NCBI GenBank assembly: GCA_963575745.1
Contig: CAUYUJ010000072.1
Coordinates: 62,001-118,738, forward strand
DNA length: 56,738 nt
Source of the DNA: Prorocentrum cordatum
Lineage: Eukaryota
Direction of reading: 5' to 3'
Positions 9,363-28,049 of this stretch are shown piece by piece (position 1 is the stretch's first letter; the number at the start of each line of letters is the position of its first letter). Made by a program: the position numbers and the translations under genes. The notes under the pieces were generated by a model that was not told the origin of the DNA, made no database searches, and saw nothing but the letters and a program-made list of their open reading frames with translations.

Positions 9363-9438
<76 letters not shown>

Positions 9439-9498
9439 TACTACCATGACTACTACTATTACTACTACTACTACTACTACTACTATTACTACTACTAT

Positions 9499-9567
<69 letters not shown>

Positions 9568-9720: not shown

Positions 9721-9759
9721 ACCACCTTTCGGGTGATAAGGAGGTTCGGGGGAGGGGAG

Positions 9760-11035: not shown

Positions 11036-11547
<512 letters not shown>

Positions 11548-11840
11548 GCCCACCCCCCCCTCAGGGGGACCCCCGACGACCATTCTATATGGGAAATACC
11601 GTATCGAAACCAATGTTTTCCTACACCGAAATTTACACAAATTTTAACAATGCAATCGGAACCCCATGCTGCACGCGCCCCCGCGCGCACGGCCCCCTGT
11701 ACACCATCAAGTGTACTCATGTAGACCTTCACGCCCTGAAGATCTTGTTGTCGCGGCAAAACGTGATCACGTCCCCCATGGCCTTGAACCTGTCCTCCAC
11801 GCCGATCCAATGGCACCACTGCCCCTCGCGCAGCGCCGTG

Positions 11841-12485: not shown

Positions 12486-12590
12486 TTGTATAGTCTGATT
12501 GGTTGTAGACTGCAGGTTAAGTGGGAGGGGGTGTGGGCTCAGGTAGCCATTTTGGGTCCGTAGCGTTCGGCTCTGGCCGACGCGCGGGTG
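12486..12590 (+). repeat. Split direct repeat A1 (105 bp)
   Basis: ttgtatagtctgattgg...cgacgcgcgggtg, identical by eye to 27699-27803. Confidence 0.97.
12543..12572 (+). other. Spliced-leader-like sequence in repeat A1 (also in A2, 27756-27785)
   Basis: gtagccattttgg is 13/13 identical to positions 4-16 of dinoSL DCCGTAGCCATTTTGGCTCAAG, followed by tccgtagc (SL positions 1-8) and gttcggctc. Confidence 0.7.
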
Positions 12591-12663
12591 TTCCGGGGGG
12601 CCGCGGGGCGGCCGCAACCACAGCCGTGCTAGTCCGCGGACTAGGTAGCGCGTCTGTGGTGCC

Positions 12664-15600
12664 ATGGCTGTGGGCTTCCTGGGAGCGCACCTGATGATCT
12701 TGGTTACGGGCGGTGCTTTCACGGTCCAAGGGGCACTTGGCTGGCTGCCGTTCGGGCGCGGGGGAAATGAGGTCCCAGCGCCGACGCCGTCAGCCCTGCC
12801 CGGGCCGACAGCGCTGCCGCCAGGCGGTGGGGGGCAAGGCAAGGGGCGAGGACCGCCCGCCAAGCCCGCGCCTGCAGGGGGAAAGGGGCGAGGGCCGCAG
12901 GCCAAGCCCCCGGGGGCGCCGGGCGTCCCCGCGCCGCCGCGGTCAGGGTCGACTACTACGACCACACCCGCGGGCATCGGGCGCGTAGGTGAGGGCGAGC
13001 CCACGGGCAGCCCAGCTACGCCGGCATACGAAGGGAACAACGAGCCCACGGGCGCGCCTGGGCAGCCGTCCGCCCCGGGAAACCGGACGGGCGATGGCGA
13101 GCCTGACCCGCCGCGCGGGCTGGACGGGTATTGGGGGTGGTGTGGTTGGGTCCCGCACCTGCCCCATTGGTGGGCTGGCCGGAACGTACCCCCACCGCCG
13201 CCGCCGCCACCTACCCCGCCCCCGGAGGCGGGGCCAGGTCCCGGTTGGGGATTCGCAGCCTGGGTCTTCGAGTTCGTGGGCTACGGAGCGTGGGTGAGTT
13301 CCCCCGACCGCACGGGCACGATCCGCACGAGCGGCGGATGGATTGGATCCGCCATCGACCGCCTGGGCGTCAAGATGCTTGGGTACTGGTGGGAGACCGC
13401 GGTCCTTTGCTTCGCCCTAGGCATCTTCACGTTCGTGTTGGGTGCCCTGGCCTTCATCGTCAACACCGCAGCCCAGCCTATGCTGTGGGCAGCCGGGGGA
13501 CTCCGCTGGGCGTGGTACCAGATTACCCGGTGCTGCCAGCGACGCGGAGGCGATGGGCCCGGCGCCCATCTCCCCCACCCCCTCCGACTCCCTTGCTGGT
13601 GCGCTGGCGCGGGCCGGGCTTGGGCGGCGTGGTGGAAACGGAGTTCTACACAAAGGGGGTCCGCGGCCGGGGAACCAATCGGGCGTACAACCACGTGCTT
13701 CTGCGCAAGCACGGGCAGGTGGCCCGCATCAGCTGCAACTTCGCGGACCGGTACCGACTGGACCGCCACGGGCTCAACATCAAGATCGGGCAGGTTCTGG
13801 GGTGCACCAGTCGCAAGTGGCGGCTGAACCTCGAGGAGACAGGGAACGTGCATCTATGCCGTGCCGTCGAGTGCGCCTCCTGTCCAGTGGCGCATCCCAT
13901 GCATGTCGACCAGTACGCGGCCATTGACCACACACAGATCGTGGACTTGGCTGAGCACGGAAAGGCCACAGCCTGCCGGGCAGTCGGCGTGGGACTCCGG
14001 AAGGTATTCGGGGTCGCCAAGTGGCTGCTTTGCTCACCCTGGTCGGTACTTGGATGGCTGTGCCGGGGCCGGCCGGAGCCCCGCTACATCACCGACGCCA
14101 CGGGCTATCGCCGCCTGGACATCGATTCGGAGAGCGAGGTGGAGGCGGAGGAGCGCCCCTGCCAAGCCGCACAAGTTGGGGCGCAGCTCGCAGGTGGCGC
14201 ACGCCCCCTCCAGCCGGAGGGGTGCGGCGACCGAGGGATGCAGGAGGCGACTGTTCTGCTACAGGAGGACGCAGAGGTGTCGGACGTCCCCCGGCCGGGG
14301 CATTGCCTCAATGCACAGGTGCACCTCTGCGCCCACCATGCGCAGAAGTACCGGTCTACCCTGATCGGCCGCAAATGCAGCCTCCCCACTTGCCTCCGAA
14401 TGGCGAAGGGTAGCTGTGGGGGGGCCCCGATGTGCGGGGAACATCTCCGACGGGACGAGGGTCACACCGTGCGCGTCGAAGCGACGGTCCAACCTGGGAT
14501 CCTCGGGGGCCTGCGCCGTCGCATGCGAGCGCGGGCTCCAAGCCCCGCCAGGGCGCGCGATTGGACCGCGCATGCCGCCGATGGGGTTGGCTAGCGCCCG
14601 GGCCGGTCTACCCCCCGCCCGCTGCACCGCCACCGCCCGCCGTGGCCCCATCCGTCGATGTTGAGCCCTCGGGGGTGCAGGCCCTAGCCTCTGGGCCGCA
14701 GCCGCGTCGCACGCGCTCCGCGGAAGCAAGGGCCAGCGGACGCTCACGGTCTGCCGACCGCGGAGCCCCGGGCGACCGGATCGCCCATCACGGGTGGCTT
14801 CAGGAGCCCTTACTCGTGAAGGTCTGCCCGATACTCCCGGGCGACCCTCGGGGAGTCGAGGAGGCGGACGGCGCGCCCCCGGCGAGTCCTTGGTATTTTC
14901 TACTAAGAGAATGCGAGGGGCTCGACGCACGGGGCACTGGCGGGGACGCACGACTTATCATCGGGACTAGCCTCGAGGGCGTCAGGGTGGAGGTCCCAGC
15001 CAGCGAGGTCGCACGGCGCCCCCCTCCGCTGGAGGACGGGCGCTACCCGATAGATTGGATCAATCGGCTGCTGTACGAGGTCCCCCAAGGCGCGCGGGAA
15101 GTGGGGTTGCGTGTCATCGCCCACCACATCCCGCAGGATCTGCTGGCGATGTTACGCCAGGAGCAGTGGGGCGGTGTGGGCGTGGAAAGCGCGAGCGGCT
15201 GGAGGCGGCGCTACCTGGCGAGCACGGAGCGCCAGCAGCTGCAGCGCGACCCGGTGCGCACACTCGGCCACCATCGGCGGGGCGGCGCGCAGGGGGCGCA
15301 ACCTGTGCCCGGGATGGAGGGCTTGCCCCGCCCAGCCCCCGTGGCGGCACCGTCGCGCTTGGCAGCGGCCGCCGCCGGCGTGGGCGAGGATGCTGAGGAG
15401 CCCGACCCCCTCGAAATATTCATGGATTCCTTGCGGGCCGAGGATCTCAAAGGACGGGGGGGCCAAGCGGCGGCCCTCAGCGCATTAGGTATGACCGCGG
15501 ACCTGCTCGGGGTTCCGCTTGATCAGGCGGAACGGCAGCTGCGGCGGAGAGTCGCACAGGTGGCAGCGGCGGGCCCACTGGGGTCCGATCTGGAGCGCGC

Positions 15601-15774
15601 CCTCGCGGATTTGGAGGATGCGCAGCTGGAAGCGCGCGCGCGCGGGAGCGTGCTGCGGCCGCCGACAAGGTTCCCCTGCAGGGCAGCCTCTCACGCGAGG
15701 GGTCGCGGAGTCGCTCGGCGCGGGGACGGGATCCCAGCCCGAGGCAGGGGCCCCGACGCGAGCTCTTCGGGGCC
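12664..15774 (+). pseudogene. 5' part of the element polyprotein: hydrophobic N-terminus, Pro/Gly-rich segment, transmembrane segment(s) and Cys/His-rich region; three frameshifts
   Basis: Protein-like segments run through ORFs 12664..13827, 13131..14594 and 14432..16168 into 15775..21108, each switch a -1 shift near a C/G run (~13570, ~14585, ~15670). TM-like stretch WWETAVLCFALGIFTFVLGALAFIV; Cys/His clusters HLCAHH and CSLPTC...CGEH. Confidence 0.65.
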
Positions 15775-18700
15775 ATGCCCCCCGTCCAACCCACGGGCCC
15801 ACGACGGGGCTTGCTGGGCGATCGGGACCTACTGGCACGCGATGGACGCGGGGGGGCCGCTCGTGGGGCCAACCCGCTCCTCGACGGAGCCTCGGTCCTT
15901 GGCCACCTCACTGGCCAGACGCCCCACGGGGGTGGCCTGGGTGGGGAGCGAGCCGGGGGCCCAGACGACGCCGGGGCGGCGGGCGCCCTGGGCGGGCTTA
16001 CAGCCGAGGCCGAAGCCCAGATCATCGAGCGCCTGGATCGCCAGAACCGCCTCACCGAACGCCACGTCCTCGCCGCCGAGCGGCAGGCGCGGGCCACCGA
16101 GGGCGACAAGAAGGCCCGGGGCACCAGGGCAGGGATCGGTCGGGACGAGGAACTGGATCTTTACATAGCCAGGGGATGCAACACCTTCGTGGTTGAGGCC
16201 TGCGAGGGGATCACGGGGAAGGACTTGTTCGACTCCCTCAAGCGCATGTGTGCGCACTCCAAGAGCACGCTCAAGACGATCGGGTTTCCCTGCCTGGTTA
16301 CCAACCGTGTGGCGCACGGCTACGCGGCGCTCGCCTTCGGGACGGGCCCACACGACCTGGCGGTGGACGACTGCGTCCCCGCGCGTGACGAGGACTTCGA
16401 TGGCTACCGGCTACCTGTGGACGACAAGCTGGAGCCCCGCCAGCGGCCCGCCACCCACATGGCGACCTGGTTCAAGAGGGCCCGGTGCGAGATCCAGATG
16501 TTCGAGTCCATCGTAGGGGTCGCACACGGGGCTGAGCGTCGGCGGTCGCTAGGGTTCTTGGAGGCGGCCTTCGAGAGGGACCCCTCGGAGTTCCCAGACC
16601 ATTGGGTCAAGGATCTGTGGGAAGAGCTCCGAAGCACCTGGGTCGAGGAGCTACGGGAGCTGAGGCGTCGGCTCTGCCGAGAGCTCGACACCGAGAACCC
16701 GAGGCGGGAGGACATCAAGTACATCCTGCTCATGCCGGAGAACGGCTACGACTTGCCCCGAACGTTCGACCTCGGGGACCCGAATGCCTACTACCAGCAA
16801 GTGGTCGTGCCCCGGCGCAAGGCCGCACTCACGCGCCTCCTCAATGGGCAGCTGAACGCCCACCTCACGAAGCGACCGCCAAAGGCGGGAGGGGGCGAGG
16901 AAATGGGCGAGCCCCGGCCCACGGCGCAGGGTGATGACAGGCCCAAGGCGGGGGCTGGGCCCCAGCCGAAGGCGGGGCCCAAGGCGGGCACCGGGGCCCC
17001 AGCGGGGACAGCCCCCAAGAGGGCGTACCCAGCGGGCAAGGAACTAACACGCCCGGAGCGTACGCGATCCGTGGCGCATGCGCCCCGCAATAAGGACAAC
17101 GTCCCTATCTGCTGGGGGGCCACCACGCACATGGGCTGCTCGCGGAAGGCGTGCGACTGCCCTAACTCCCATGACCCCATCAAGTCAACGCGCGGTTTGG
17201 ACTACTCGGTAGTCATGCAGCTCACGAGGCGCGGGGGGCTCCTTGGGACGCCCCGGATCGACCCCAAGCAGGTGGATGGGATGATTGCGCAGCTACGCTC
17301 GCAAGCCAAGGCAGCCGAGGCCGAGAAGGTCGGCGAGGACACGTCCCCCCCTGCTGCCCCTGACTCCCAGAAGGAAAAGGGCCGTGGCCGCGGCAGCGGC
17401 TCGCGAGCGGCGGGCGACCCGGGCCCGGGACAGGCCCCGGACGACTACACTGCGCTTCAGCTTACCGCGATGGAATCCGACTTCCGGGAAGCGGTTAAGG
17501 GCCCCGACTTCGGATGGCTGGAAGACCACGACCGCCCGCGCGCGGCGGCCACTTGGGACGCCCAGCCCGCGGGCGATGGGCCGGAGCTTCGCCTCAAGCT
17601 CATGCAGGAGCTCGAATCCGAGGGCATCTTCGCGCCTCTGAAGGGGGCCAGCGAGTACTTGCAGAGCCACGCGCGCGGGCGCGTCTTGGGGGCGCGCCTG
17701 CGCGGGGAGCGGCTCACCGTGGAGCGGGCCCTCGAGGAAGCCGTGGACCGAGGCCATCGGGGACTCAGCAGTGAGGCTGCCGACCTGCATGAGGCGCTTA
17801 GCTGCGCCGCAGGATACGTCACCGAGGGCGGGGCCGAGGTCGGCCCGGTTGCTTGGGACGCCGACGGGCTGATGGGCCGCGGGTCCTATGCCTTCTGGGA
17901 CGGGGACACCCGCATCCAGTGGGACTTCCTCGACTACCGGGACCGCCTCAGCCCTACAGAGGAGATGGGCCAGGCGATGGGCCTGGAGGTGGGCGATGCC
18001 GAGGAGCGGCAGTGCCTGCTACTGCACGTAGCTGCTGGGGTGCTCCTGCTACGCGCGGGCGAGGGCGCGGGCGAGCCCAGCCCGGACGCGGTGCAGCAGT
18101 TGGCCGCGACGTATCGCCATGCACTATGGGAGGAGGCCCATGAGGCCCTTCGTGCCCTGGGCGACTCCCCACCGTGGATCACGGCCCTGGAGGCCGATGT
18201 CCGTTCCTACGTCCATGATGCGGTGCACCCGCACCACGACAAGGACTATCGCTGCCTGGCAGCATGCCCCGTCACCGACCTCGACGCCGTCACGCTCCAG
18301 GTGCACCGTGTCAACGGCAGTGGGCGCCTATGCGTGGACCACCTAATGGGGACGGGTGTCGGCGCGGAGGATCAAGTAATTCCGCTCCTGATCTGGCGTG
18401 GCCATATGCGCGTTTTGCGCCCACGCTCCCACACGGAGGCGGCGGCCCTAGGCCAGCGCTGGGGACACGCAGGACGCCTGTCCCGCGAGATCGTGAGTGT
18501 CGGCTGGCGCGAGATGCTCGATGAAGGCCCAGACGTTGAACCCACCGTCCCGGGCAAGAGCGCGCCCTGCACCCACTGCAAGGCAGCGGAAGGTCGGGCG
18601 GGCCGCGCAGTGGGACGCGCGCCAGCCTCGTTCGGGGAACATCCAGCCGACGTCCAGGCACGCCTCCTGGAGGCGAACGCGATGCCAATTCGACACGACC

Positions 18701-21108
18701 CCGCGTTCGCGTACGGTTTGATCGCCCAGGAGGTGTACGCCGGTTCGGGAAATTGGTCGGCTGCGCTTCGCGCCGAGGGCATCCGGGTGCTGGAGCCGAT
18801 CGAATACTACGACGACCCTCTCCGAGAGTCCGGCCCACGGCCGGATCACGACACCCTCGACCCGGCGGTTCGCGCGCGCCTACAGGAGGCCGCACGGACC
18901 CCCATGGGCCCCGATGTGGCCAACGTTTGGTGCTGGGGTACCCCGTGTGGCTCGTGCACCGACCTCGGGCTCATGACCCAGCCTGGCGGGACCCCGCAGG
19001 GAACCCGCACGTGGGAGCACCCCGAGGGGGACGGCTCCAAAGAGTTCGAGCTCGTTGGTAACAGCCACACTCAGTTCACGTGCGACACCTGCCGCATCCT
19101 ACACGACGCCGGCAAGGAGTTTCTCATCGAGTCCTCCTGCCCCTCGGGCCGCTACCCCAAGATTTGGGACCAGGCCCCGATGCACGAGCTGCGTCGAGCG
19201 ACGGGGGCCATGATCGTCCCGATCCACATGTGCGCCTGGGGTAAGGCCCCGTCCGACGCGCCAGAGAGCCGCTATCGCAAGGGCAGCTGGTGGCTCGTCA
19301 GCCCCCGGCTGTACCTGCACGCTCTGTTGCTGGCGCGACGTTGCCCCCGTGACCACCACCACGTCGAGCTGAAAGATCACGTGCCGGGCTCGGGCATTAA
19401 GCGCACCAAGGAGGCGCAGGTTTGGGCCCCCCGTCTTTGCGCTGCGTGGGCAAAGGTGTTGAAAGGGGCCTATCACCGCTGGTCGGTGAGCCAACTGCGT
19501 CGGCAGTTGGCGCCTATATGGGAGGATGGCCCGGGGGCGCCCCCCAAAATCGCCCGGGCGGAGGCGCCCGGGCGCCTGCAGGGCGTCGACTTCACTGGAA
19601 TCGAGCGCCTACAGGCTTCAGGGGACGGCTCAAAATGCAGTGGGCTTAGCCCAGCCATGCACCGAGCATTGGCGGGGCTTCCTAAGCCCCCGTTGGGCGA
19701 GACACAGGGGGAGGTGAGTGCGGGCAAGCCTCGGGCCCCTTGCGAGGACCCGGCCAGAGATATCGCGGAGGACCTCGACGGGTGCAGCCCGGCGGAGCTG
19801 GCCACGGTCTACCTGACCTTCTGCACGGAGCACCCTGAGTACGACCCCGAAGCCATGCGGACCCTGGTGGGGCTGGGGGATCGGCTCCTCCAGCGGACGG
19901 GGTCCCTGAAGGAAGCGGCCGCGCTGCTTAGGCGCGCGCGCCACGAGCGCCTGGGCAACCCCCTTCGGGGTGTCCTGGGGGACAAGGTGCGACGGTGTTT
20001 AAGCCGAGAGCACTTCGAGTACGTCCGGGAGCTGGCGGAAGGGGGGGCATCCGCTCGGCGGGGCGCGCCGCGGAGGCGCGAGCGAGCTCAGCCGTGCCCC
20101 AGCGTGCGAGCCCACATCGACGAGGCCTACCAGAAGGTATGGGCGGATGTGACCTGGGGGATCGTCTTGGTGGCTTCCCAGGCGGCAGAGGGTTTCTTGA
20201 CGGAGCTGGTGGAAGCCCCCCTGGGGAGGGCCCCAAAGCAGCTACCGGACAGAACCCTATCGTCCGAAGGGCGTATGATCCACGCGATGCTCTCGGCCAA
20301 CGCCGCCACACACAAGCGCGACCACCCGCCTGCCGTCCAGCCACGCCATCGGCAAGTGGCGAGGACGGCGGTATGGCATCGCGCGCGCCATCCCGGAGCG
20401 CGCCTCCTCTGCGCCAAGCGGGACGTCTCGCGGGCCTTCAAGTGGCTGGACATCGCCCCGGCGGACGTCGGGGACTTTGGCACCTCATTACCGGGGGCCC
20501 ACGCTGGCATCGAGGGGGACGTCAGGGTCGTTTACCTAGCCATGGTGTTTGGGTGGACGGGAGCCCCAGGCAATTACATGATGCTCGCCCTGGCGGCGCG
20601 GGAGCTCCACGAGAGCTATCGGCCTGGGGAGCCGCACTGGCACGACACCACCCACTTCCACTCGGAGTGGCTTATGGATGACCCTGTGGTGGTGGAGCCC
20701 GACATTGGGGTCCGGCCGTGGATGGCCTGCGACGCATTGGATGCATCCATACGCGAGGTATTCGGGTCCGAAGCAGTGAACGTCAGCAAGAGGGACGCCG
20801 AGGGGGAGCCCTCCACCGCTCAGATTATCTGGGGGCTCAGCATGGACTTCGAGCGCGAGCGAGTTGGACTCCCGGAGCCCAAGGCCATGAAGATGCGCTT
20901 CCTATTGGCGGAGCCGGAGCTGAGCTTCGGCTGCCGCATGGTACGGCTGCGAACCGCGAGGGAGCTAAGTGGGCTCGGCCAGTTCTGCGCCTGCGCAGCT
21001 CCAGCCCTGAGCCTGGAGCTCCCAGCGGTCCACCGGATGCTGTCGGGTGACCCAGGCCAGGCCTACGTCCACCCGCCGGGCGACCCCGAGATGGTAGAGG
21101 CTGCGTAG
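15775..21108 (+). CDS. Element polyprotein: Gag-like region + CCCH finger + OTU-like protease + C5 DNA methyltransferase + reverse transcriptase
   Basis: 1777-aa ORF whose frame is also open upstream of the ATG. Motifs: C-x8-C-x6-C-x3-H, QCLLLHVA...LIWRGHM, EVYAGSG/GTPC/FLIES, KRDVSRAF, MVFGWTGAPG, LMDD. Ends at a TAG that is followed in frame by RNase H. Confidence 0.9.
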   Translation: MPPVQPTGPRRGLLGDRDLLARDGRGGAARGANPLLDGASVLGHLTGQTPHGGGLGGERAGGPDDAGAAGALGGLTAEAEAQIIERLDRQNRLTERHVLAAERQARATEGDKKARGTRAGIGRDEELDLYIARGCNTFVVEACEGITGKDLFDSLKRMCAHSKSTLKTIGFPCLVTNRVAHGYAALAFGTGPHDLAVDDCVPARDEDFDGYRLPVDDKLEPRQRPATHMATWFKRARCEIQMFESIVGVAHGAERRRSLGFLEAAFERDPSEFPDHWVKDLWEELRSTWVEELRELRRRLCRELDTENPRREDIKYILLMPENGYDLPRTFDLGDPNAYYQQVVVPRRKAALTRLLNGQLNAHLTKRPPKAGGGEEMGEPRPTAQGDDRPKAGAGPQPKAGPKAGTGAPAGTAPKRAYPAGKELTRPERTRSVAHAPRNKDNVPICWGATTHMGCSRKACDCPNSHDPIKSTRGLDYSVVMQLTRRGGLLGTPRIDPKQVDGMIAQLRSQAKAAEAEKVGEDTSPPAAPDSQKEKGRGRGSGSRAAGDPGPGQAPDDYTALQLTAMESDFREAVKGPDFGWLEDHDRPRAAATWDAQPAGDGPELRLKLMQELESEGIFAPLKGASEYLQSHARGRVLGARLRGERLTVERALEEAVDRGHRGLSSEAADLHEALSCAAGYVTEGGAEVGPVAWDADGLMGRGSYAFWDGDTRIQWDFLDYRDRLSPTEEMGQAMGLEVGDAEERQCLLLHVAAGVLLLRAGEGAGEPSPDAVQQLAATYRHALWEEAHEALRALGDSPPWITALEADVRSYVHDAVHPHHDKDYRCLAACPVTDLDAVTLQVHRVNGSGRLCVDHLMGTGVGAEDQVIPLLIWRGHMRVLRPRSHTEAAALGQRWGHAGRLSREIVSVGWREMLDEGPDVEPTVPGKSAPCTHCKAAEGRAGRAVGRAPASFGEHPADVQARLLEANAMPIRHDPAFAYGLIAQEVYAGSGNWSAALRAEGIRVLEPIEYYDDPLRESGPRPDHDTLDPAVRARLQEAARTPMGPDVANVWCWGTPCGSCTDLGLMTQPGGTPQGTRTWEHPEGDGSKEFELVGNSHTQFTCDTCRILHDAGKEFLIESSCPSGRYPKIWDQAPMHELRRATGAMIVPIHMCAWGKAPSDAPESRYRKGSWWLVSPRLYLHALLLARRCPRDHHHVELKDHVPGSGIKRTKEAQVWAPRLCAAWAKVLKGAYHRWSVSQLRRQLAPIWEDGPGAPPKIARAEAPGRLQGVDFTGIERLQASGDGSKCSGLSPAMHRALAGLPKPPLGETQGEVSAGKPRAPCEDPARDIAEDLDGCSPAELATVYLTFCTEHPEYDPEAMRTLVGLGDRLLQRTGSLKEAAALLRRARHERLGNPLRGVLGDKVRRCLSREHFEYVRELAEGGASARRGAPRRRERAQPCPSVRAHIDEAYQKVWADVTWGIVLVASQAAEGFLTELVEAPLGRAPKQLPDRTLSSEGRMIHAMLSANAATHKRDHPPAVQPRHRQVARTAVWHRARHPGARLLCAKRDVSRAFKWLDIAPADVGDFGTSLPGAHAGIEGDVRVVYLAMVFGWTGAPGNYMMLALAARELHESYRPGEPHWHDTTHFHSEWLMDDPVVVEPDIGVRPWMACDALDASIREVFGSEAVNVSKRDAEGEPSTAQIIWGLSMDFERERVGLPEPKAMKMRFLLAEPELSFGCRMVRLRTARELSGLGQFCACAAPALSLELPAVHRMLSGDPGQAYVHPPGDPEMVEAA
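17110..17172 (+). other. CCCH zinc finger in the Gag-like region
   Basis: CWGATTHMGCSRKACDCPNSH. Confidence 0.7.
17920..18423 (+). other. OTU/papain-like cysteine protease domain (putative)
   Basis: Cys box EERQCLLLHVAAG (Cys codon 18013) and His box IPLLIWRGHMRVL (His codon 18403), 130 aa apart. Resembles OTU DGNCLFRAVA...LLYxGxHY. Confidence 0.5.
18718..19460 (+). other. C5 cytosine DNA methyltransferase domain 1 (catalytic Pro-Cys retained)
   Basis: Motif I QEVYAGSG, motif IV WGTPCGS (Cys codon 18946), motif VI FLIES (ENP/ENV variant), motif VIII HMCAWG...RKGSW, C-terminal RTKEAQVWAPRLCAAWA. Confidence 0.85.
20200..20900 (+). other. Reverse transcriptase domain (DIRS type)
   Basis: PLGRAPK...GRMIH, AKRDVSRAFKWL, MVFGWTGAPGNY, WLMDD (20671-20682), IIWGLSMD. 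Confidence 0.92.
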
Positions 21109-24100
21109 GACGATTGGCACCAGACCCTGGATTGGCTGCGCGTCTGCTTTGAGATGCCTGTCGAGGGTAACTTCGAGACCTCCTTCGAGGGCCTGCTAGG
21201 CCTTCGCGAGGCCCTCGCACTCCCTGGGGCGCTCGGCAAGCTGCGCTGGCTGGGAGGCGATGCCACCCTGGATCGGATCGGTGCGCTGGACTGGTCCTCG
21301 CGCGAGTACATCGTGGCGGAGGCGGCTCCCTACCTGGAGACGCTCCGCTCCGCCCCCGGGGTCACCTGGCAGGGGGAGGGGGAGATCATCGCGGTGGTCG
21401 AACTCCTCTGCCTGATAGCCTTGGCGGCCGAGAAGGGCCCGGACTGGTTCCAGCTTCTATTGCCGTACGTCACTGACAACAGTAATGTCAGCCGCTGGCT
21501 GCGACGCCGCCGGGCACGGAACGCGGTGGCGCGCCACCTGCTTCGAGTCCTGGCCATGCTGGAGCTACGGTACAAGTTCCGGGTCCTGGACGGGCTCTAC
21601 TTACGGACTTGCCACAACGAGCTGGCCGACTTCGTTACTCGTGCCACGGTGGAGGAGGTACGCCAGCGGATGACGGAGGCTGGATGGACCGAGCTGTCGC
21701 CGGCAGCACTGTGGGGCGAGCTGGTGGAGGAGGCCGCCCAGCGCGAGCTGCGGATGCCAGGAGACGACGGGCCCTGGCGCGCGGCTGCACTCCAAGTCAA
21801 GGGAGCCCGGGAGGCCCTACCACGCTACGCCCCCCTGCAGGTCGAGGGGGCGCGGCTGCTGGAGGTGGGAACCGCGTGGCCCCCCTTCGGGGAGGCATGG
21901 GAGAGCCTCGGCGGGTCGGCGCTGCTAGCGCCGTGGGATGTCGGTGACCGATGGGACCCGGACGACGGCGACCGCCCCAAGGACCCCACTGGGGCCCCGC
22001 GGATCCGCTGGCTGTGCGCGTCACTATCGGAGGACCCCGGTGGACGCGAGGCGACGGGCCTGGAGCGGCTACTGATCACCACTCGGCCACTGGCCGTGTT
22101 GCTCGACGCCCCCGTCAACTACGCCGCAGTGCGGCTAGGGGCGCGCTTGCGGCGCCTCGGCTATGTGGCACTCTCCCCGGAGACGCGCCTTCTGTGCACA
22201 CACTTCGGCGACGTCACGGCGCGCGCGCGGGCGGTCCAGGTTTGGGGTTGCGGAAAACGGGTTCGGGCGCCGAGCCTCATACCCCCCCTGGGGCAGCCCT
22301 GCGTGGAGCCACGCGGCCTCTGCCAGCTCTGGAAAGAGGCAGGGCGGCCACCGCTGGATGAGCTCCGCCTGGACCTCAACAACGGCACCTTGCTCGTGGA
22401 CCCTCGGATCTCGACGACGGGGGATCGCATGATGCCCTGGCCGCGCGGCACATGGCAGCCCGCGGGAGGCGGGCGGGCCCAGCGCGTGGTGATTCATGAT
22501 CCGCGCGGGCCCTGCCATACGGCACGGGCGAAGCCCGACCCGTTGAAGGGCTATGCGAACACCCTGATCCTGGAAGGGTCCGAGGGCGGCTGGACCGCGC
22601 GAGCCCTGCACCCGAAAGAAATCTGGTGCGCCCAGGGGGGCACGGCGGAGCTGTGGGATGTCCTGGGCCTTGGAGGTATGCCGATCGCCGAGCGCATGCG
22701 GCAGGCCGCCCGTGCACTCCCGCGCCGCACGGCCCGCTGGGTGCTCCAGTGGGCGGAGCGCCTGCTGAGGCAGGCCGTAGAGGCAGCAAGCGCAGGCGAG
22801 GCACCCGGGGCGCGCGCTGGCGTCGGACCCGACCACGACCGACTCGCTAACGACGAGATGGTTAAGCTGTGGCTAAAGGCCTGGCTTCAGGCCCCCGACC
22901 GCCCAAGCGGGCCATTCGAGGCTGCGCTGGAGGCGGGGAAGACGACGGACGACGCCGCTCGGTTGGCGGACCAGCTCGACCCCCCTGCTACCGCGCGGTC
23001 CACCGCAGCAGGGGAGGACGGGGCAGGCGGGGAGCGGGTCGGGGCGGTGACCTTCGCTGTTCCGGAAGGCGCGGGGATGCCCAGGCCAAGCGCCACGGAC
23101 GGCGCGGGCGGCGAGGCACGCCCCCCGCGCAAGACCCGCCGGCGTACCCGCAGTGCCCCTGCCCCCGCGCTGGTGAAGCCCGCCGCCTGGCGGTACGCCG
23201 GCGGGGGCGCCCCGAAAGGGGTTCAGGGGGAACTCACCGACCCTCGCGAGCTGGATGCGACCGCCACCGAGGCGATGCTGGCCAAGCTTGCCGAAGGGAC
23301 GCGGGCCAACTACAGCGCCGGGTGGCGTAACTGGGTACTCTGGCGGAGGCTCCGAGGCCGGAGCCCGTACCTGCAGGGGGAGACTCGGGACGCCCGCCAT
23401 ACGGATGAGGATGACCTCATCCGGCATGTCGTGTACCTGTACAAGGTGATGAAGAGGCGGGCCACGACCATCCGCCAGCGCCTGTTCGCCATTCGATATG
23501 TCCACACCCTGGCAGGGTTTGGGGATGTGACTTCCGATCGGCGCCGGCTCTGGACCACGATCGAGGGACTCCGCCGCTGGGACGGAAAGGCGAAACGGAA
23601 GCTGCCGGCCACGCCCCGGATGTTGCGCTGGCTCCGCGAGTACTTGTTCGCCCACGGAACGGCCACGCGCCGAGAGGCGACCATCCTATGGGCGGCGCTT
23701 ATGACGGGGTACTTCTTCATGCTCCGCGCGTCGGAGTATTTGGTCCAAGAGGACCGCTCCTGGAGCATGGGACGGGTGGTGCGTGGGCAGGACGTGCAGG
23801 GGCTGCGCGGGGGTACACCCAGCGCATGGCTCAGCGACTGCGACGAGGTAGCGCTGACGATCACGTCGTCCAAGACGGACCAGTTTAACGCAGGTTGCGT
23901 ACGCAACCATTACCGCTCGGGGGTGGAGTTGCGTGTCGTAGACGCACTCGCCGACCTCCAGAGGGAGCTGCCGGACCGGTTTGGACGAGGAACCGAGGCG
24001 GGGCTCCCCCTGTTCCGCCGGCCCGATGGCCACCCGATTATGCGGGAGGAGGTGCAGGGGCTCCTCCAACTCGCGGCTGCCGCCTGCGGCGTGGACGCAG

Positions 24101-25455
24101 GCCAGATGGGATCCCACTCCCTGCGCATCGGGGGCGCGACGGCGTTGTACCACGCCTGTCGCGACCTGGAAGCGGTCAAGAGGTTCGGGAGGTGGTCCAC
24201 GGACGCCTTCCACGGATACCTCTGGGAGGACCATCGGCGTCAGGCTCCATTCGCCCGAGGCATGGCGGAGGGCCACGCCCTACTGGCCCCGGACGCCCGC
24301 GGCGATGACGGCCTCGCGGCCGACGCCCGCCCCGACCGGTTGGCCGGGAGCGACCCGCCCCCGTTTGGGAGCGACCTGAGGCCCTCGGAACGCCCGGCCT
24401 GGGCGCCCGGGCGCCCCCCCTGGGCGCGCCCTTCGGCGCGAGCAGGGTCAAATATGGAGGGGGAAGGAGAGGGGGGGCCGGTGAGATACGAGCCAGGGCG
24501 AGGAGTTAACGGGCGTGTTGGGAAGCAGCAGGCGGGTCCCACAGGTGTTCATGTCGGGGCGGGGGCTTCGCGTTGCGGGGGTATCCCGGTGGACCTCTCG
24601 CCCTCGACCCCCCTTTCGCTTCCGCCCCCGATCGCCCCAGGCACGCCCACCTCCTCTTGGTCCTCTCATCCGCAGCCATCTCCCACTCCAGAGCGAGGCA
24701 CGCGAGCAGCGCGCGCACCCCAGCCTCGCGCGCCAGCCGCGCCTCCGCCCCGCGCTCCGGCAGCGTGCATCATGGGATTCCTGGTGGGCCTGGTGGCCCC
24801 GGACCAGAGCAAGGCGCGCGGCCATGACTACAGCATCATGGCGGTGAACCCCCTCGGCGTCGTCGTCTCGGGGGCCGCGCTGTCGGACGAGCTCCGGAGT
24901 GCCGCCCACAACATCCTGTACGGTGGTGGACGAGCTGGACAGCGAGGACCTCGTCGAGGTGGTCAACCACGACCACGAAGCAGCCCCGTGCATCGCGGCG
25001 GCTTGCCTGGCCGCGGGGGCGAGCGAGGACCACGGCCAGCTGGTGATCGTCGACGGCAAGCGGGGCGCGTGGGGAGTGGGCGCGGGGCCGAATATCAAGG
25101 TCCAGCGCCAGGCGGCCAAGCTGGCGCTCGCCCTGGCCCAGTTCCAGGGGCAGCCCATGCCGGAGCTCCGCGAGCTCTGCAAGCACAACAGGGGGCTGCT
25201 CGACATGATGCGCACGGTGGACGCGGAGGCGGTCGTGGAGCTCACCGACGTGGACGACGCCTCGAGCAGGGGCGAGGGGAGGTCGACCCCAGCCCCGGTC
25301 CTCGAGCCGGGCGAGGACGCCGTCACCGCGGCGCTGGCGCGTGCGGCCATCCAGGCTGCAGCGCGGCGCCAGAGCAAAGGCGCTCCAGCGGAGCGCCCGC
25401 GGCCCCCGCGGTCCCCGGGCCAGGAGCGCCTCGCCGAGGAGGTCCGCAAGCGTGA
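21109..25455 (+). CDS. In-frame continuation of the polyprotein: RNase H + inactive C5-MTase fold + tyrosine recombinase + linker
   Basis: Same frame as 15775..21108 after one TAG (EAA*DDWHQ). RNase H: GGDAT, IAVVELL, VTDNSNV, HNELADFVTR. YR: FFMLRASEY, SKTDQ, HSLRIGGA, GRWS, HGY. The protein-like reading leaves this frame at ~24920. Confidence 0.9.
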   Translation, partial: DDWHQTLDWLRVCFEMPVEGNFETSFEGLLGLREALALPGALGKLRWLGGDATLDRIGALDWSSREYIVAEAAPYLETLRSAPGVTWQGEGEIIAVVELLCLIALAAEKGPDWFQLLLPYVTDNSNVSRWLRRRRARNAVARHLLRVLAMLELRYKFRVLDGLYLRTCHNELADFVTRATVEEVRQRMTEAGWTELSPAALWGELVEEAAQRELRMPGDDGPWRAAALQVKGAREALPRYAPLQVEGARLLEVGTAWPPFGEAWESLGGSALLAPWDVGDRWDPDDGDRPKDPTGAPRIRWLCASLSEDPGGREATGLERLLITTRPLAVLLDAPVNYAAVRLGARLRRLGYVALSPETRLLCTHFGDVTARARAVQVWGCGKRVRAPSLIPPLGQPCVEPRGLCQLWKEAGRPPLDELRLDLNNGTLLVDPRISTTGDRMMPWPRGTWQPAGGGRAQRVVIHDPRGPCHTARAKPDPLKGYANTLILEGSEGGWTARALHPKEIWCAQGGTAELWDVLGLGGMPIAERMRQAARALPRRTARWVLQWAERLLRQAVEAASAGEAPGARAGVGPDHDRLANDEMVKLWLKAWLQAPDRPSGPFEAALEAGKTTDDAARLADQLDPPATARSTAAGEDGAGGERVGAVTFAVPEGAGMPRPSATDGAGGEARPPRKTRRRTRSAPAPALVKPAAWRYAGGGAPKGVQGELTDPRELDATATEAMLAKLAEGTRANYSAGWRNWVLWRRLRGRSPYLQGETRDARHTDEDDLIRHVVYLYKVMKRRATTIRQRLFAIRYVHTLAGFGDVTSDRRRLWTTIEGLRRWDGKAKRKLPATPRMLRWLREYLFAHGTATRREATILWAALMTGYFFMLRASEYLVQEDRSWSMGRVVRGQDVQGLRGGTPSAWLSDCDEVALTITSSKTDQFNAGCVRNHYRSGVELRVVDALADLQRELPDRFGRGTEAGLPLFRRPDGHPIMREEVQGLLQLAAAACGVDAGQMGSHSLRIGGATALYHACRDLEAVKRFGRWSTDAFHGYLWEDHRRQAPFARGMAEGHALLAPDARGDDGLAADARPDRLAGSDPPPFGSDLRPSERPAWAPGRPPWARPSARAGSNMEGEGEGGPVRYEPGRGVNGRVGKQQAGPTGVHVGAGASRCGGIPVDLSPSTPLSLPPPIAPGTPTSSWSSHPQPSPTPERGTRAARAPQPRAPAAPPPRAPAACIMGFLVGLVAPDQSKARGHDYSIMAVNPLGVVVSGAALSDELRSAAHNILYGGGRAGQRGPRRGGQPRPRSSPVHRGGLPGRGGERGPRPAGDRRRQAGRVGSGRGAEYQGPAPGGQAGARPGPVPGAAHAGAPRALQAQQGAARHDAHGGRGGGRGAHRRGRRLEQGRGEVDPSPGPRAGRGRRHRGAGACGHPGCSAAPEQRRSSGAPAAPAVPGPGAPRRGGPQA
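21241..21645 (+). other. RNase H domain (DIRS type)
   Basis: Catalytic D-E-D-D pattern: LGGDAT, VVELL, VTDNS, NELADF. Confidence 0.88.
21853..22750 (+). other. Second, degenerate C5-MTase fold (no Pro-Cys, no ENV)
   Basis: RPLAVLLDAP (motif VI-like), LRRLGY (VII), LCTHFGDVTARARAVQV (VIII), RALHPKEIWCAQG (IX) and RQAARALPRRTARWV (X) occur in canonical order. Confidence 0.65.
23281..24230 (+). other. Tyrosine recombinase (core-binding + catalytic domain)
   Basis: TRANYSAGWRNW and TIRQRLFAIRYVH core-binding helices; catalytic R (23725), K (SKTD), HSLR (24115-24126), GRW and Y (24217) are all intact. Confidence 0.95.
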
Positions 25456-27488: not shown

Positions 27489-27698
27489 GGCCAAGCGGCC
27501 GCAGGCGTGCCAGAGCGCGAGCGCGCGGGCCGTCAGGGCCCACGCGCTCGCGTTGGGCGTGGGCCATCAGGGCCCACGCCCAGGCGGAGATGCGCGTCGC
27601 CACGCTGCCATGAAAATACCATCGCCCTGTCCTGGTCCCTCTCTCGTCCCCTCCTCTCCTCCTCTCCCTCCGTTGAGTGCACGCGTATCTCACTTAAC
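27489..27698 (+). repeat. Split direct repeat B1 (210 bp)
   Basis: ggccaagcggccgcagg...tctcacttaac; matches 27840-28049 with 6 substitutions counted by eye. Confidence 0.97.
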
Positions 27699-27803
27699 TT
27701 GTATAGTCTGATTGGTTGTAGACTGCAGGTTAAGTGGGAGGGGGTGTGGGCTCAGGTAGCCATTTTGGGTCCGTAGCGTTCGGCTCTGGCCGACGCGCGG
27801 GTG
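27699..27803 (+). repeat. Split direct repeat A2 (105 bp), abutting B1
   Basis: Identical to A1. The B1|A2 junction reproduces the expected circular-intermediate junction cacttaAC-ttgtatag. Confidence 0.97.
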
Positions 27804-27839
27804 CCCACCCACCCCGCTTTGCTCCCAGACGCCTGCGCG

Positions 27840-28049
27840 GGCCAAGCGGCCGCAGGCGTGCCAGAGCGCGAGCGCGCGGGCCGCCAGGGCCCACGCGCTC
27901 GCGTCGGGCGTGGGCCGTCAGGGCCCACGCCCAGGTGGAGATGCGCGTCGCCACGCTGCCATGAACATACCATCGCCCTGTCCTGGTCCCTCTCTCGTCC
28001 CCTCCTCTCCTCCTCTCCCTCCGTTGAGTGCGCGCGTATCTCACTTAAC
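27840..28049 (+). repeat. Split direct repeat B2 (210 bp), right end of the element
   Basis: Copy of B1 ending tctcacttaac, followed directly by host sequence ccctctcatccctgtaac. Confidence 0.97.

What the first reader, a model, noticed from the sequence alone, without database searches (positions are those of the whole stretch)
12536..12576. Spliced-leader mimic inside the element's terminal repeat A
Seen: both A copies contain ggctcag-GTAGCCATTTTGG-g-TCCGTAGC-gttcggctc, i.e. 13 consecutive nt of dinoSL including ATTTTGG, then a second degenerate SL, about 110 nt upstream of the first ATG. Known: dinoflagellate mRNAs receive the 22-nt SL by trans-splicing, and the Sm-type motif AUUUUGG lies in the SL exon. 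Inference: trans-splicing would remove the 5' A repeat needed for replication, so a genome-encoded SL mimic could allow translation or Sm binding without it. Alternatively it is a fossil of past trans-splicing and reverse transcription.
Basis: partly seen in the sequence, partly recalled or inferred. Interest (0 to 1): 0.8.

Follow-up and report, generated by a model that had tools for sequence, protein, structure and literature searches.

The report
Relict spliced leaders inside retrotransposon repeat
A 15.6-kb tyrosine-recombinase retrotransposon of a dinoflagellate carries worn copies of the host's spliced-leader sequence inside both copies of its terminal repeat, most likely a footprint of copying its own trans-spliced RNA back into DNA rather than a purpose-built mimic.

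Summary
Both copies of repeat A (12486-12590 and 27699-27803, 100% identical) contain GGCTCAG-GTAGCCATTTTGG-G-TCCGTAGC-GTTCGGCTC. This aligns to three tandem DinoSL units. About 0.01-0.02 exact 13-mers are expected by chance in the window.

The host element (12486-28049) has the order A-coding-B-A-B. It has a reverse-transcriptase fold and a tyrosine recombinase, as described for Symbiodinium DIRS-like elements.

The SL-like block sits at the 3' edge of A, 91-121 nt before the polyprotein ATG. I found distant relatives in metagenomes (31-46% Pol identity). An SL-like unit lies in the same place in L002, L004 and L006 (empirical p 0.0008-0.0097). It is weak in L003/L001 (about 0.04) and absent in L012. 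The rest of A shows no BLAST-detectable similarity between families.

Best reading: these are relict DinoSLs, captured when trans-spliced element RNA was reverse-transcribed, then kept or renewed in A. DinoSL relicts are a known phenomenon; this location is a new variant.

The "translation/Sm mimic" idea is not supported. ATTTTGG is not conserved, and the block is not at a 5' end. The internal A2 copy also removes the supposed conflict with trans-splicing. No RNA data were available, so the splice site and any present function remain inferred.

The parts
12486..12590 (+). Repeat A1, the left terminal repeat (105 nt)
   Evidence: 12484-12590 = 27697-27803, 100% identical. I set the boundary at 12486 by comparing the left flank with the B1/A2 junction.
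12536..12576 (+). SL-derived block in A1. Unit 1 is GGCTCAG. Unit 2 is GTAGCCATTTTGG (13/13). A single G follows. Unit 3 is TCCGTAGC--GTTCGGCTCtgG (about 16/22). AG dinucleotides end at 12542, 12546 and 12563.
12591..12663 (+). Rest of the 5' UTR, containing the palindrome CTAGTCCGCGGACTAG
   Evidence: No ATG lies between 12486 and 12664.
12664..25455 (+). Polyprotein coding region, broken in this copy by frame changes and by a TAG at 21106-21108. It includes the RT domain (about 19723-21105) and the tyrosine recombinase (about 23701-24702).

collinear with the single 4809-aa ORF of L002, in different frames.

21107 A>G in 514.6 of 532.3 depth, so the stop is private to this copy.

RT.

YR.
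24848..26971 (+). Overlapping open frame with an RRM_1 match
   Evidence: PF00076, E = 8.3e-5, 22.8 bits against a cut-off of 20.7.
27489..27698 (+). Repeat B1 (210 nt)
   Evidence: 27489-27698 = 27840-28049, 97.1% identical.
27699..27803 (+). Repeat A2, the internal copy of A, with the same SL-derived block at 27749-27789
27804..27839 (+). 36-nt spacer between A2 and B2. It begins CCCACCC, as does the spacer after A2 in L002.
27840..28049 (+). Repeat B2, the right end of the element

Best explanation
The block is a short array of relict dinoflagellate spliced leaders (DinoSL). It has become a heritable part of repeat A of a DIRS-like (A-coding-B-A-B) tyrosine-recombinase retrotransposon.

Proposed course of events:

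1. The element's RNA, like other dinoflagellate mRNAs, receives the 22-nt DinoSL by trans-splicing at an AG in the 3' half of A1 (inferred).

2. The element's reverse transcriptase copies that RNA to its SL-bearing 5' end (inferred; an RT fold is shown).

3. The part of A1 lost with the outron is rebuilt from the complete internal copy A2. In this step a copy of the leader is left at the seam (inferred).

4. Because A1 is remade from A2 or together with it, both A copies carry the same block (identity shown, cause inferred).

5. Repeated rounds leave several partial units: a degenerate, 5'-complete older unit downstream and a fresher one upstream.

The block therefore marks where the RNA's 5' end lay. 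That is why it sits at the 3' edge of A, just ahead of the polyprotein's 5' UTR.

Its likeliest present role is passive or modest. It supplies AG acceptor sites and forms part of the 5' UTR. It is not a substitute for trans-splicing.
For: Shown:

- The block is SL-derived beyond chance.

- It is present in both A copies, which are 100% identical, while B1 and B2 differ at 6 of 210 positions. In L002 the same holds: A1 = A2 at 100% over 95 nt, and B at 99.1% over 108 nt.

- The element has the DIRS-type repeat order.

- It encodes an RT. The model has pLDDT 77. Foldseek's top matches are the RTs of foamy virus, HIV-1, MMLV and Ty3, from E = 5e-6, with 67 matches at E <= 0.001. The ESM Atlas neighbours carry RVT_1.

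- It encodes a tyrosine recombinase. PF00589 scores E = 0.001-0.0025, below the cut-off. Six of 11 aligned proteins (ten relatives plus the window's own Pol segment P0001, which matched nothing) hit it, best 1.1e-5. The Atlas neighbours carry Phage_integrase.

- The block lies at the 3' edge of A in 2 of 2 complete elements: 14-17 nt before the end of A in the window and 4 nt before it in L002.

- In a test fixed in advance, I took the best single-SL alignment within 150 nt upstream of the long-ORF ATG on the + strand, and compared it with same-length windows of all held DNA. The empirical fractions were W 0.0018, L002 0.0097, L004 0.0032, L006 0.0008, L003 0.045, L001 0.038 (same family as L003) and L012 0.98.

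- These relatives share only 31-46% Pol identity with the window. Their A and B repeats show no nucleotide similarity to the window's by blastn-short.

- Each of W, L002, L004 and L006 has one unit that starts at or near SL position 1 (TCCG.. or CCTTAG..). That is what a copy of a trans-spliced RNA 5' end should leave.

- In the window the upstream unit is intact (13/13) and the downstream unit is worn (about 16/22). This matches the published rule that younger relicts lie 5' (PMC6050394, passages).

- In L002 an out-of-frame ATG at 107 lies inside the block. This fits an mRNA 5' end at or after it.

Background:

- DinoSL relicts arise by re-integration of trans-spliced transcripts (PMC7245778, passages).

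- Relict-bearing Symbiodinium genes are enriched for the GO term 'RNA-dependent DNA replication' (PMC5585692, passages).

- Ordinary relicts occur elsewhere in this window, at 43878-43890 and 45163-45172.
Against: - There is no transcript evidence. No RNA run holds the stretch, so trans-splicing of this element, its acceptor site and the transcription start are all inferred.

- The units in the window do not have the classical recycled form, a 5'-truncated CCATTTTGGCTCAAG after CTCAAG. Unit 2 lacks its 3' CTCAAG and is followed by G plus a 5'-complete unit. The simple 'new SL spliced onto the AG of the old relict' scheme does not produce this.

- L012 has no block, and L003/L001 are only marginal.

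- L002 is not significant under the three-tandem-SL model (p = 0.12 by shuffles, 8.3% empirically) or by k-mer cover (7.6%). It is significant only with the relict model and the single-unit model.

- Only 6 independent 5' ends were available.

- Persistence of SL-likeness, and a shared CTCA(A)G|GTAGCC junction in the window and in L006 (31% Pol identity), could instead mean purifying selection for a function. The fossil reading does not require this.

- The replication scheme for split-repeat elements is itself a model recalled from the literature. It was not tested here.
Confidence: 0.7

Rival explanations
1. Landing pad (R-like) function. The SL relict inside the internal copy A2 is kept by selection because it is homologous to the leader that trans-splicing puts on the RNA's 5' end. 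The cDNA end, complementary to the SL, anneals to the relict in A2 and copies the upstream part of A. This rebuilds the left end that trans-splicing removed. The host leader would then act like the R region of a retrovirus.
For: - The block lies at the 3' edge of A in 2 of 2 complete elements.
- A1 = A2 at 100% in both, while the B copies differ.
- SL-likeness is retained across families whose repeats otherwise show no nucleotide similarity by blastn-short.
- In the window and in L004 the junction reads ..TTGG-G-TCCG.. This is a 5'-complete unit preceded by one G and fused to a 3'-truncated unit, as an imprecise template switch with 'TC' microhomology would leave. The microhomology reading is my inference.
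Against: - Nothing here shows a template switch.
- The homology is short and degenerate: L002 has about 17-18 of 22 matches with three gaps.
- L012 lacks the block, and L003/L001 are weak.
- The sequences after A1 and after A2 differ immediately beyond A, and I could not derive the full A-coding-B-A-B order from this scheme.
Confidence: 0.15
2. Promoter function. The relict's TTT(T/G) motif serves as the element's core promoter, as proposed for dinoflagellate retrogenes. Transcription would start a few tens of nt downstream, near the A/5'UTR boundary.
For: - PMC5585692 and PMC6050394 (passages) propose that relict TTTT/TTTG motifs act as promoters, and that relicts 50-100 nt before the start codon are the best conserved.
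- A T-run followed by GG is the part common to the units of W, L004, L006 and L002.
- The block lies 91-121 nt (W), about 110-150 nt (L002), 42-70 nt (L004) and 14-33 nt (L006) before the ATG.
Against: - The promoter idea is itself unproven in the cited papers.
- Distances to the ATG vary from 14 to about 150 nt.
- L006 leaves only 14 nt between the unit and the ATG, too short for a downstream start with a normal 5' UTR.
- No transcription start data exist for this element.
Confidence: 0.12
3. SL mimic. The genome-encoded leader lets an unspliced full-length RNA be translated or bound by Sm proteins without trans-splicing.
For: - The intact AUUUUGG in the window copy.
- Precedents for retroelement genomic RNAs that escape trans-splicing. 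The 8-kb C. elegans Cer1 RNA is not SL1-spliced (PMC3315495, passages). T. cruzi L1Tc transcripts from Pr77 are unspliced and translated (PMC1874656, abstract and passages).
Against: - ATTTTGG is not conserved in L002, L004 or L006.
- The block is 50 nt inside A and is broken into partial units, not a cap-adjacent 22-mer.
- The fold energy is unremarkable (z = -0.87) and there is no Rfam family match.
- A2 makes the supposed conflict with replication unnecessary.
- Sm binding to the SL exon motif is itself disputed (PMC6616646, passages).
Confidence: 0.05
4. Captured fragment of an SL RNA gene or an SL-like (tandem-SL) gene. The sequence would have been picked up as DNA or as unspliced SL RNA, not from a trans-spliced element transcript.
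For: - Tandem-SL genes and SL-like pseudo-genes with several partial SLs exist in Fugacium kawagutii, and SL introns start with GU or GC (PMC6616646, passages).
- In the window and in L006 an SL 3' end is followed by GT (CTCA(A)G|GTAGCC).
Against: - The 'GT' is simply SL positions 4-5 of the next unit.
- L002 and L004 have no GT/GC after CTCAAG.
- No intron-like sequence follows.
- The position, always just before the polyprotein 5' UTR on the coding strand, is what a transcript 5' end predicts.
Confidence: 0.03
5. Chance resemblance in GC-rich repeat DNA.
For: Scores of 12-13 on a simple scale occur about once per 10-20 kb in these sequences. Low-complexity T-runs inflate k-mer tests.
Against: - About 0.01-0.02 exact 13-mers are expected per window.
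- 0 of 2000 shuffles reach the observed score.
- The same place is SL-like in three further families.
Confidence: 0.01

Closest known systems
Relict DinoSL sequences upstream of dinoflagellate retrogenes. Sources: Song et al. 2017, PMC5585692; Stephens et al. 2020, PMC7245778; first described by Slamovits and Keeling 2008, which I know only as cited in those texts.
   Same: The block is a DNA-encoded remnant of the 22-nt leader, on the coding strand, at 5'-UTR distance from an ATG, in tandem partial units. The T-run/GG part is the best kept. It is explained by reverse transcription of a trans-spliced RNA.
   Different: - It lies inside a transposon's own terminal repeat and is present twice per element (A1 and A2).
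- About 50 nt of repeat precede it, so it is not at the 5' end of the retrocopy.
- The units in the window are 3'-truncated or 5'-complete, rather than the classical 5'-truncated CCATTTTGGCTCAAG.
- It recurs at the same place in families with 31-46% Pol identity.
SymbioDIRS elements, the DIRS-like retrotransposons of Symbiodinium (de Mendoza et al. 2018, PMC5890265; passages read)
   Same: - Repeat order A-coding-B-A-B.
- A tyrosine recombinase.
- A reverse transcriptase too divergent for Pfam. The paper says so, and I found the same.
- Dinoflagellate host.
   Different: - No DNMT domain was detected by Pfam in this copy or in the 10 aligned relatives. It is therefore not shown to be a SymbioDIRS-Dnmt3.
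- The paper's main text has 0 occurrences of 'spliced leader' or 'splice leader'.
- I did not look at its supplements, which may hold consensus repeats.
Tandem-SL and SL-like genes of Fugacium kawagutii (PMC6616646, passages)
   Same: Genomic loci with several full or partial SL units. Some lack a functional donor.
   Different: Those are short, stand-alone transcribed loci with sequence downstream that acts as an intron. Here the units are embedded in a transposon repeat, directly ahead of a polyprotein.
Retroelements in other trans-splicing organisms: C. elegans Cer1 (PMC3315495) and T. cruzi L1Tc with its Pr77 promoter (PMC1874656)
   Same: They face the same problem: a retroelement whose RNA is exposed to SL trans-splicing, which removes 5' sequence.
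   Different: In those cases the genomic RNA escapes trans-splicing. Here the sequence suggests the opposite, that spliced RNA has been used as a template. None of those elements is reported, in the passages I read, to carry the leader in its repeat.
The R region of retroviruses and LTR retrotransposons (textbook knowledge, recalled)
   Same: Under the novel reading, a short sequence present at the RNA's 5' end and again near its 3' end guides a template switch.
   Different: Here the 5' copy would be supplied by the host's trans-splicing machinery, not transcribed from the element. No template switch is shown.

Membership tests
DinoSL relict | Similarity to the 22-nt DinoSL beyond chance | tested here: met
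   13/13 exact match plus an adjacent 8/8 match. 0 of 2000 shuffles reach the score. Empirical fraction 0.04%. Expectation 0.01-0.02 per window.
DinoSL relict | On the coding strand, upstream of an ORF at 5'-UTR distance | tested here: met
   + strand, 91-121 nt before ATG 12664, which opens the frame homologous to the L002 polyprotein.
DinoSL relict | Classical recycled form: a unit starting at CCA (after the AG of CCGTAG), directly behind a CTCAAG | tested here: not met
   The window has CTCAG|GTAGCC and TTGG-G-TCCGTAGC. L002 comes closest, with GCTCAAG|CTTTTCTGGGTCAAG. PMC6616646 notes that genomic relicts are often longer and keep CCGTAG.
DinoSL relict | Transcripts of the locus carry a fresh SL spliced upstream of or within the relict | not testable with these tools
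   No RNA run holds the stretch. The one run laid was kept as contigs of unrecorded kind.
DIRS-like / split-direct-repeat tyrosine-recombinase retrotransposon (SymbioDIRS type) | Repeat order A - coding - B - A - B | tested here: met
   A1 12486-12590, B1 27489-27698, A2 27699-27803, B2 27840-28049. The same order holds in L002.
DIRS-like / split-direct-repeat tyrosine-recombinase retrotransposon (SymbioDIRS type) | Reverse transcriptase | tested here: met
   - Pfam finds nothing.
- The motifs D..AF, FGW.GAP and LMDD are invariant in 11 and in 18 aligned proteins.
- AlphaFold2 model pLDDT 77.2.
- Foldseek top hits are retroviral and Ty3 RTs, from E = 5e-6, with TM only 0.3-0.4.
- Atlas neighbours carry RVT_1 in 26-33% of members.
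DIRS-like / split-direct-repeat tyrosine-recombinase retrotransposon (SymbioDIRS type) | Tyrosine recombinase (Phage_integrase) instead of a DDE integrase | tested here: met
   - PF00589 E = 0.0025 and 0.00099, at 18-19 bits, below the 27.1-bit cut-off.
- 6 of 11 aligned proteins hit it, best 1.1e-5.
- Atlas neighbours carry Phage_integrase/DUF3504.
- XerD in the PDB scores only E = 0.37.
- I call this met on combined evidence; no single test is strong.
DIRS-like / split-direct-repeat tyrosine-recombinase retrotransposon (SymbioDIRS type) | No target-site duplication | tested here: met
   The flanks are ..AGAGCCAC | element | CCCTCTCATCC.. with no duplicated bases. That this defines the class is recalled.
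SymbioDIRS-Dnmt3 (de Mendoza 2018) | Cytosine DNA methyltransferase domain in Pol | tested here: not met
   No DNMT family appears at E <= 0.01 in the 6 window ORFs or in the 11 aligned proteins. A divergent domain could be missed.
SL RNA gene / SL-like gene | Complete SL exon followed by a GU/GC donor and intron | tested here: not met
   No complete 22-nt unit is present. GT follows CTCA(A)G only in W and L006, where it is SL position 4-5 of the next unit. It does not follow in L002 or L004. There is no Rfam match.

The most novel reading that the evidence does not exclude
The host's spliced leader has been co-opted as the element's terminal redundancy. Trans-splicing puts the DinoSL on the 5' end of the retrotransposon RNA. 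The SL relict kept at the 3' edge of the internal repeat copy A2 is its partner. Together they guide the template switch that rebuilds the left end. A trans-spliced mRNA would then be a fully competent replication template. This would also point to DIRS-like reverse transcriptases as enzymes that routinely copy SL-capped RNAs to their very 5' ends. That would make them candidates for the still unidentified activity behind the mass retroposition of dinoflagellate genes.
Probability: 0.15. Interest if true: 0.8.

Novelty: new variant of a known kind. Interest (0 to 1): 0.45.

Why it matters
DinoSL relicts are the standard marker of retroposition in dinoflagellates, yet which reverse transcriptase makes retrogenes is stated to be unknown (PMC5585692 and PMC6050394).

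Here the relict sits inside both copies of a DIRS-like element's own repeat, at the repeat's 3' edge, and in several deeply diverged families. That is sequence evidence that these elements replicate through trans-spliced RNA. It also shows how a retroelement can live with universal trans-splicing: the internal A copy preserves what splicing removes.

It gives a concrete, cheap test: long-read cDNA and a survey of complete elements in published Symbiodiniaceae assemblies.

In my searches and in the main text of the paper that described these elements I found no statement of this. The library does not hold most subscription journals, and I did not open supplements.

Tried and rejected
- **Whole-genome search:** no genome is held for this window. 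Genome-wide enrichment of relicts at element ends could not be tested.

- **RNA evidence:** no RNA holder was listed for 12486-16000.

- **The single listed run, X1:** it is of unrecorded kind and kept as contigs. I laid it on 12380-27696.
  - It covers the whole element with 8,993 contigs at 85-100% likeness, so this is a multi-copy family.
  - It shows the B-to-A junction.
  - It cannot show RNA ends, and the table shown listed no variant inside A. Only 40 of 141 variants were shown, so that says nothing.

- **Protein-guided locus searches:**
  - The single protein P0001 found nothing in viral contigs or metagenome contigs.
  - The alignment A1 found nothing in genome contigs or viral contigs.
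  - It found 12 loci in metagenome contigs.

- **Earlier findings of this scan:** nothing by place, sequence or words.

- **MAFFT alignment of four 5' regions:** too diverged to trust, so not used as evidence.

- **Pairwise alignment of A regions against shuffles:** W-L002 p = 0.28, W-L004 p = 0.03, L002-L004 p = 0.04, W-L003 p = 0.54. There is no solid homology outside the SL-like part.

- **k-mer cover test:** it supports W (0.02%) and L004 (0.2% at k = 5, 3% at k = 6). It does not support L002 (7.6% and 5.4%) or L003 (11% and 16%).

- **Simple-gap Smith-Waterman scan:** background scores of 12-13 are common, so that scale was dropped.

- **Sequence searches for RT:** Pfam found none. PDB sequence searches gave only XerD at E = 0.37 and noise.

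- **First structure job:** interrupted and re-sent.

- **'GGG' spelling:** I considered that the family-specific spelling (TGGGCTCA / TGGGTCA instead of TGGCTCA) marks common descent of the unit. By my reading it holds in about 6 of 11 family units. One ordinary site in the window (1303) also has it. I dropped it as evidence.

- **L007 3' tail (15075-15135):** it has three tandem SL-like units (score 124, top 0.06%). It is not repeated within the contig, so it cannot be assigned to an A repeat.

- **L003 17040-17140:** it has a run of SL-3'-like units of unclear meaning.

- **Replication scheme:** I tried to derive the A-coding-B-A-B order from an LTR-like two-jump scheme with the SL as R. It fails, because the sequences after A1 and after A2 differ.
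Full report
**What is there.** The window reads GGCTCAGGTAGCCATTTTGGGTCCGTAGCGTTCGGCTCTGG at 12536-12576. The 13-mer GTAGCCATTTTGG occurs exactly twice, at 12543 and 27756, both on the + strand. A self-BLAST shows that both sites lie in a direct repeat, 12484-12590 = 27697-27803, 100% identical. A second repeat pair, 27489-27698 = 27840-28049, is 97.1% identical.

The order is A1 (12486-12590), about 14.9 kb of coding sequence, B1, A2, a 36-nt spacer, then B2 (ending at 28049). The published DinoSL is (D)CCGTAGCCATTTTGGCTCAAG (PMC5585692, figure legend; PMC7245778, passage). So the 13-mer is SL positions 4-16 and TCCGTAGC is positions 1-8.

**Is it more than chance?** The expected number of exact SL 13-mers in 56.7 kb, both strands, is 0.010-0.017. 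An adjacent TCCGTAGC has p = 2e-5 per position.

Aligned to three tandem leaders, the block reads GGCTC-AG---GTAGCCATTTTGG-----GTCCGTAGC--GTTCGGCTC. It scores 128 against a shuffle mean of 56.8 (sd 10.8), and 0 of 2000 shuffles reach it. Among 11,938 windows of 110 nt from the window and the 12 related loci, 0.04% score as high, and the top-scoring windows listed all overlap A1 or A2.

Ordinary relicts occur elsewhere in the window: ATTTTGGCTCAAG at 43878, TTGGCTCAAG at 45163 and CCATTTTGGC at 56724.

**What the element is.** The + strand holds a chain of long open frames from ATG 12664 to 25455.

- Pfam gives only a sub-threshold Phage_integrase match (E = 0.0025 and 0.00099) and an RRM in an overlapping frame.
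- Relatives in the protein collection are 39-59% identical over the C-terminal 482 residues of the first Pol segment. One is named from Polarella glacialis.
- Six of the 11 aligned proteins (ten relatives plus the window's own Pol segment P0001, which matched nothing) match Phage_integrase, best E = 1.1e-5.
- The alignment has invariant D..AF, FGW.GAP and LMDD motifs.
- An AlphaFold2 model of residues 1401-1861 has pLDDT 77.2. Its best Foldseek matches in the PDB are the reverse transcriptases of foamy virus, HIV-1, MMLV and Ty3. E-values start at 5e-6, 67 matches have E <= 0.001, and TM-scores are only 0.3-0.4.
- ESM Atlas neighbours carry RVT_1 for this part and Phage_integrase for the recombinase part.

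This matches the DIRS-like elements of Symbiodinium described by de Mendoza et al. 2018. [quoted passage not shown] I found no DNMT domain, so I do not file the element under their Dnmt3-bearing subgroup. That paper's main text never mentions the spliced leader.

**State of this copy.** It is damaged. Compared with the single 4809-aa ORF of relative L002, it is collinear but in changing frames. Its TAG at 21106-21108 is TGG in 514.6 of 532.3 units of contig depth in the one sequencing run that holds the family.

**Relatives.** A profile search of metagenome contigs returned 12 loci with 31-46% Pol identity.

- **L002** is a complete element. A1 (45-139) equals A2 (15540-15634) at 100%. B1 is at 15339-15539, and B2 is cut by the contig end. 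There is one ORF, 247-14676.
- **L004** has its polyprotein ATG at 285.
- **L006** has it at 37.
- **L003 and L001**, one family, have it at 5188 and 124.
- **L012** has it at 247, behind AT-rich DNA.

**The test across families.** I fixed the test in advance. It takes the best local alignment to one 22-nt leader within 150 nt upstream of that ATG on the coding strand. This is compared with same-length windows from all held DNA on both strands. The fractions scoring at least as high were:

| Element | Fraction |
|---|---|
| W | 0.0018 |
| L002 | 0.0097 |
| L004 | 0.0032 |
| L006 (only 36 nt available) | 0.0008 |
| L003 | 0.045 |
| L001 | 0.038 |
| L012 | 0.98 |

The units are:

- W: TCCGTAGC--GTTCGGCTC, plus GTAGCCATTTTGGgTC
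- L002: TCCGctcAAGCTTTTCTGGgTCAAG
- L004: TCCGGCTATGATTTGGGCTCAAG
- L006: CCtTAG---TTTTGGGCTCAAG

Other tests were less kind to L002. It gave p = 0.12 against three tandem leaders and 0.0015 against the leader-plus-truncated-relicts model. Empirically these were 8.3% and 0.29%, and k-mer cover gave 7.6%.

The A and B repeats of the window and of L002, and the 5' region of L004, show no nucleotide similarity between families by blastn-short. Pairwise alignments of the A regions are at best marginal (p = 0.03-0.54).

By eye, the window and L002 do share three short motifs:

- TTGTATA near the start of A
- CTCACTTA near the end of B
- CCCACCC immediately after A2

**Anatomy that bears on mechanism.**

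- In both complete elements the block sits at the 3' edge of A. It ends 14-17 nt before the end of A in the window and 4 nt before it in L002.
- In both, the A copies are identical while the B copies differ (6 of 210 positions, and 1 of 108).
- Each of W, L002, L004 and L006 has a unit that begins at or next to SL position 1.
- In the window the upstream unit is perfect over 13 nt, and the downstream, 5'-complete unit is worn.
- In the window and L004 the seam reads TTGG-G-TCCG.
- In the window and L006 another seam reads CTCA(A)G|GTAGCC.
- AG dinucleotides that could accept a new leader end at 12542, 12546 and 12563.
- In L002 an out-of-frame ATG at 107 lies inside the block. This would hinder polyprotein translation unless the mRNA begins after it.

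**Interpretation.** The simplest account uses only known processes. Dinoflagellate mRNAs are trans-spliced. Re-integration of such transcripts leaves relict leaders. Relict-bearing genes in Symbiodinium are enriched for 'RNA-dependent DNA replication'.

A retrotransposon copies its own mRNA every cycle, so it is the most exposed of all genes to picking up the leader. In an A-coding-B-A-B element the RNA still contains a complete A (A2) after trans-splicing has removed the 5' part of A1. The left end can therefore be rebuilt, and the leader copy ends up at the seam, which is the 3' edge of A. Remaking A1 from A2 would also explain why the A copies are identical while the B copies are not.

These last steps are inference. 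The replication scheme for split-repeat elements is a literature model that I recall and did not test.

The idea was an encoded mimic that spares the RNA from trans-splicing. It loses its motive once A2 is taken into account. It is also contradicted by three results: the non-conservation of ATTTTGG, the internal and fragmented state of the block, and the lack of any special fold (z = -0.87) or Rfam match.

**What remains open.** The units in the window are not of the classical recycled form. SL-likeness persists at one place across families whose repeats otherwise show no detectable nucleotide similarity. Both points leave room for selection.

Two functional readings fit. One is the published but unproven proposal that the relict T-run is a core promoter. 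The other, bolder one is that the relict in A2 pairs with the spliced-on leader to guide the template switch, as the R region does in retroviruses. I give these 0.12 and 0.15.

Retroelements in other trans-splicing organisms are reported to keep their genomic RNA unspliced (Cer1; L1Tc). Use of spliced RNA as a template would therefore be a contrast worth testing.

**Limits.**

- No RNA run was found, and no host genome was available.
- Only six independent 5' ends could be examined.
- The metagenome loci are unnamed contigs. That they come from dinoflagellates is inferred from the homology.
- My literature searches cover open-access texts only. I read passages, not whole papers, and no supplements.

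**Verdict.** This is a real, SL-derived feature. The phenomenon, DinoSL relicts, is known. The setting is new: both copies of a DIRS-like element's split repeat, at the repeat's 3' edge, and family-wide. Interest is moderate, and the feature can be tested directly with long-read cDNA.

Noticed in passing
window 21106-21108, and frame changes near 13545-13599, about 14590 and about 15523: This copy's polyprotein is broken. A TAG stop reads TGG in 514.6 of 532.3 depth of run X1. The frames change relative to the single 4809-aa ORF of L002. X1 contigs also show an inserted A after 14591 (81.5 of 156.8 depth). Yet A1 and A2 are 100% identical.
   Followed up: partly
window 27804-27810 and L002 15635-15641; window 12486-12493 and L002 about 52-60; window 27687-27694 and L002 about 15493-15500: Three short motifs are shared by the window element and L002 (39% Pol identity): CCCACCC immediately after A2, TTGTATA near the start of A, and CTCACTTA near the end of B. 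They may be recombination or priming signals.
   Followed up: no
window 12630-12645; L002 about 167-198: Perfect palindromes lie in the 5' UTR just after A1. The window has CTAGTCCGCGGACTAG. L002 has CGGAAACCCCCGGAG-GT-CTCCGGGGGTTCCG.
   Followed up: no
window 11841-12485 vs 28485-29157 (direct, 92%); 12376-12485 vs 28225-28334 (inverted, 93%): The element sits in a block of repeats. Its left flank recurs in direct orientation about 440 nt beyond its right end, and in inverted orientation about 175 nt beyond it. Tandem 11- and 21-22-nt repeats lie on both sides.
   Followed up: no
window 27199-27696 (bin): Summed contig depth over the B1 region is 4155, against about 400-700 over the coding part and 1030 over the A1 bin. 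B-like sequence may therefore be far more abundant than full elements, as solo repeats or in other families.
   Followed up: no
window 43878-43890, 45163-45172, 56724-56733: Ordinary DinoSL relicts on the + strand outside the element: ATTTTGGCTCAAG, TTGGCTCAAG and CCATTTTGGC. I did not identify the genes behind them.
   Followed up: partly
window 24848-26971 (+): An open frame overlapping the end of the recombinase frame has an RRM_1 match (E = 8.3e-5) and a weak B-box match. Three of the 10 aligned relatives carry a DnaJ domain instead.
   Followed up: no
L007 15075-15135 and 4500-4570; L003 17040-17140: Further SL-like tandem units occur in related contigs. There are three near-full units about 190 nt after the recombinase ORF stop of L007, two SL-3'-like units about 4 kb upstream of its RT, and a run of about five SL-3'-like units about 450 nt after the polyprotein stop of L003. 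None could be assigned to a repeat.
   Followed up: partly
window 8685-9500, 10040-10830, 29426-29640, 38350-38880: Long microsatellite-like arrays ((CTA)n-type 9-12-nt periods, (CAT)n-rich units, (GT)n) flank the element.
   Followed up: no
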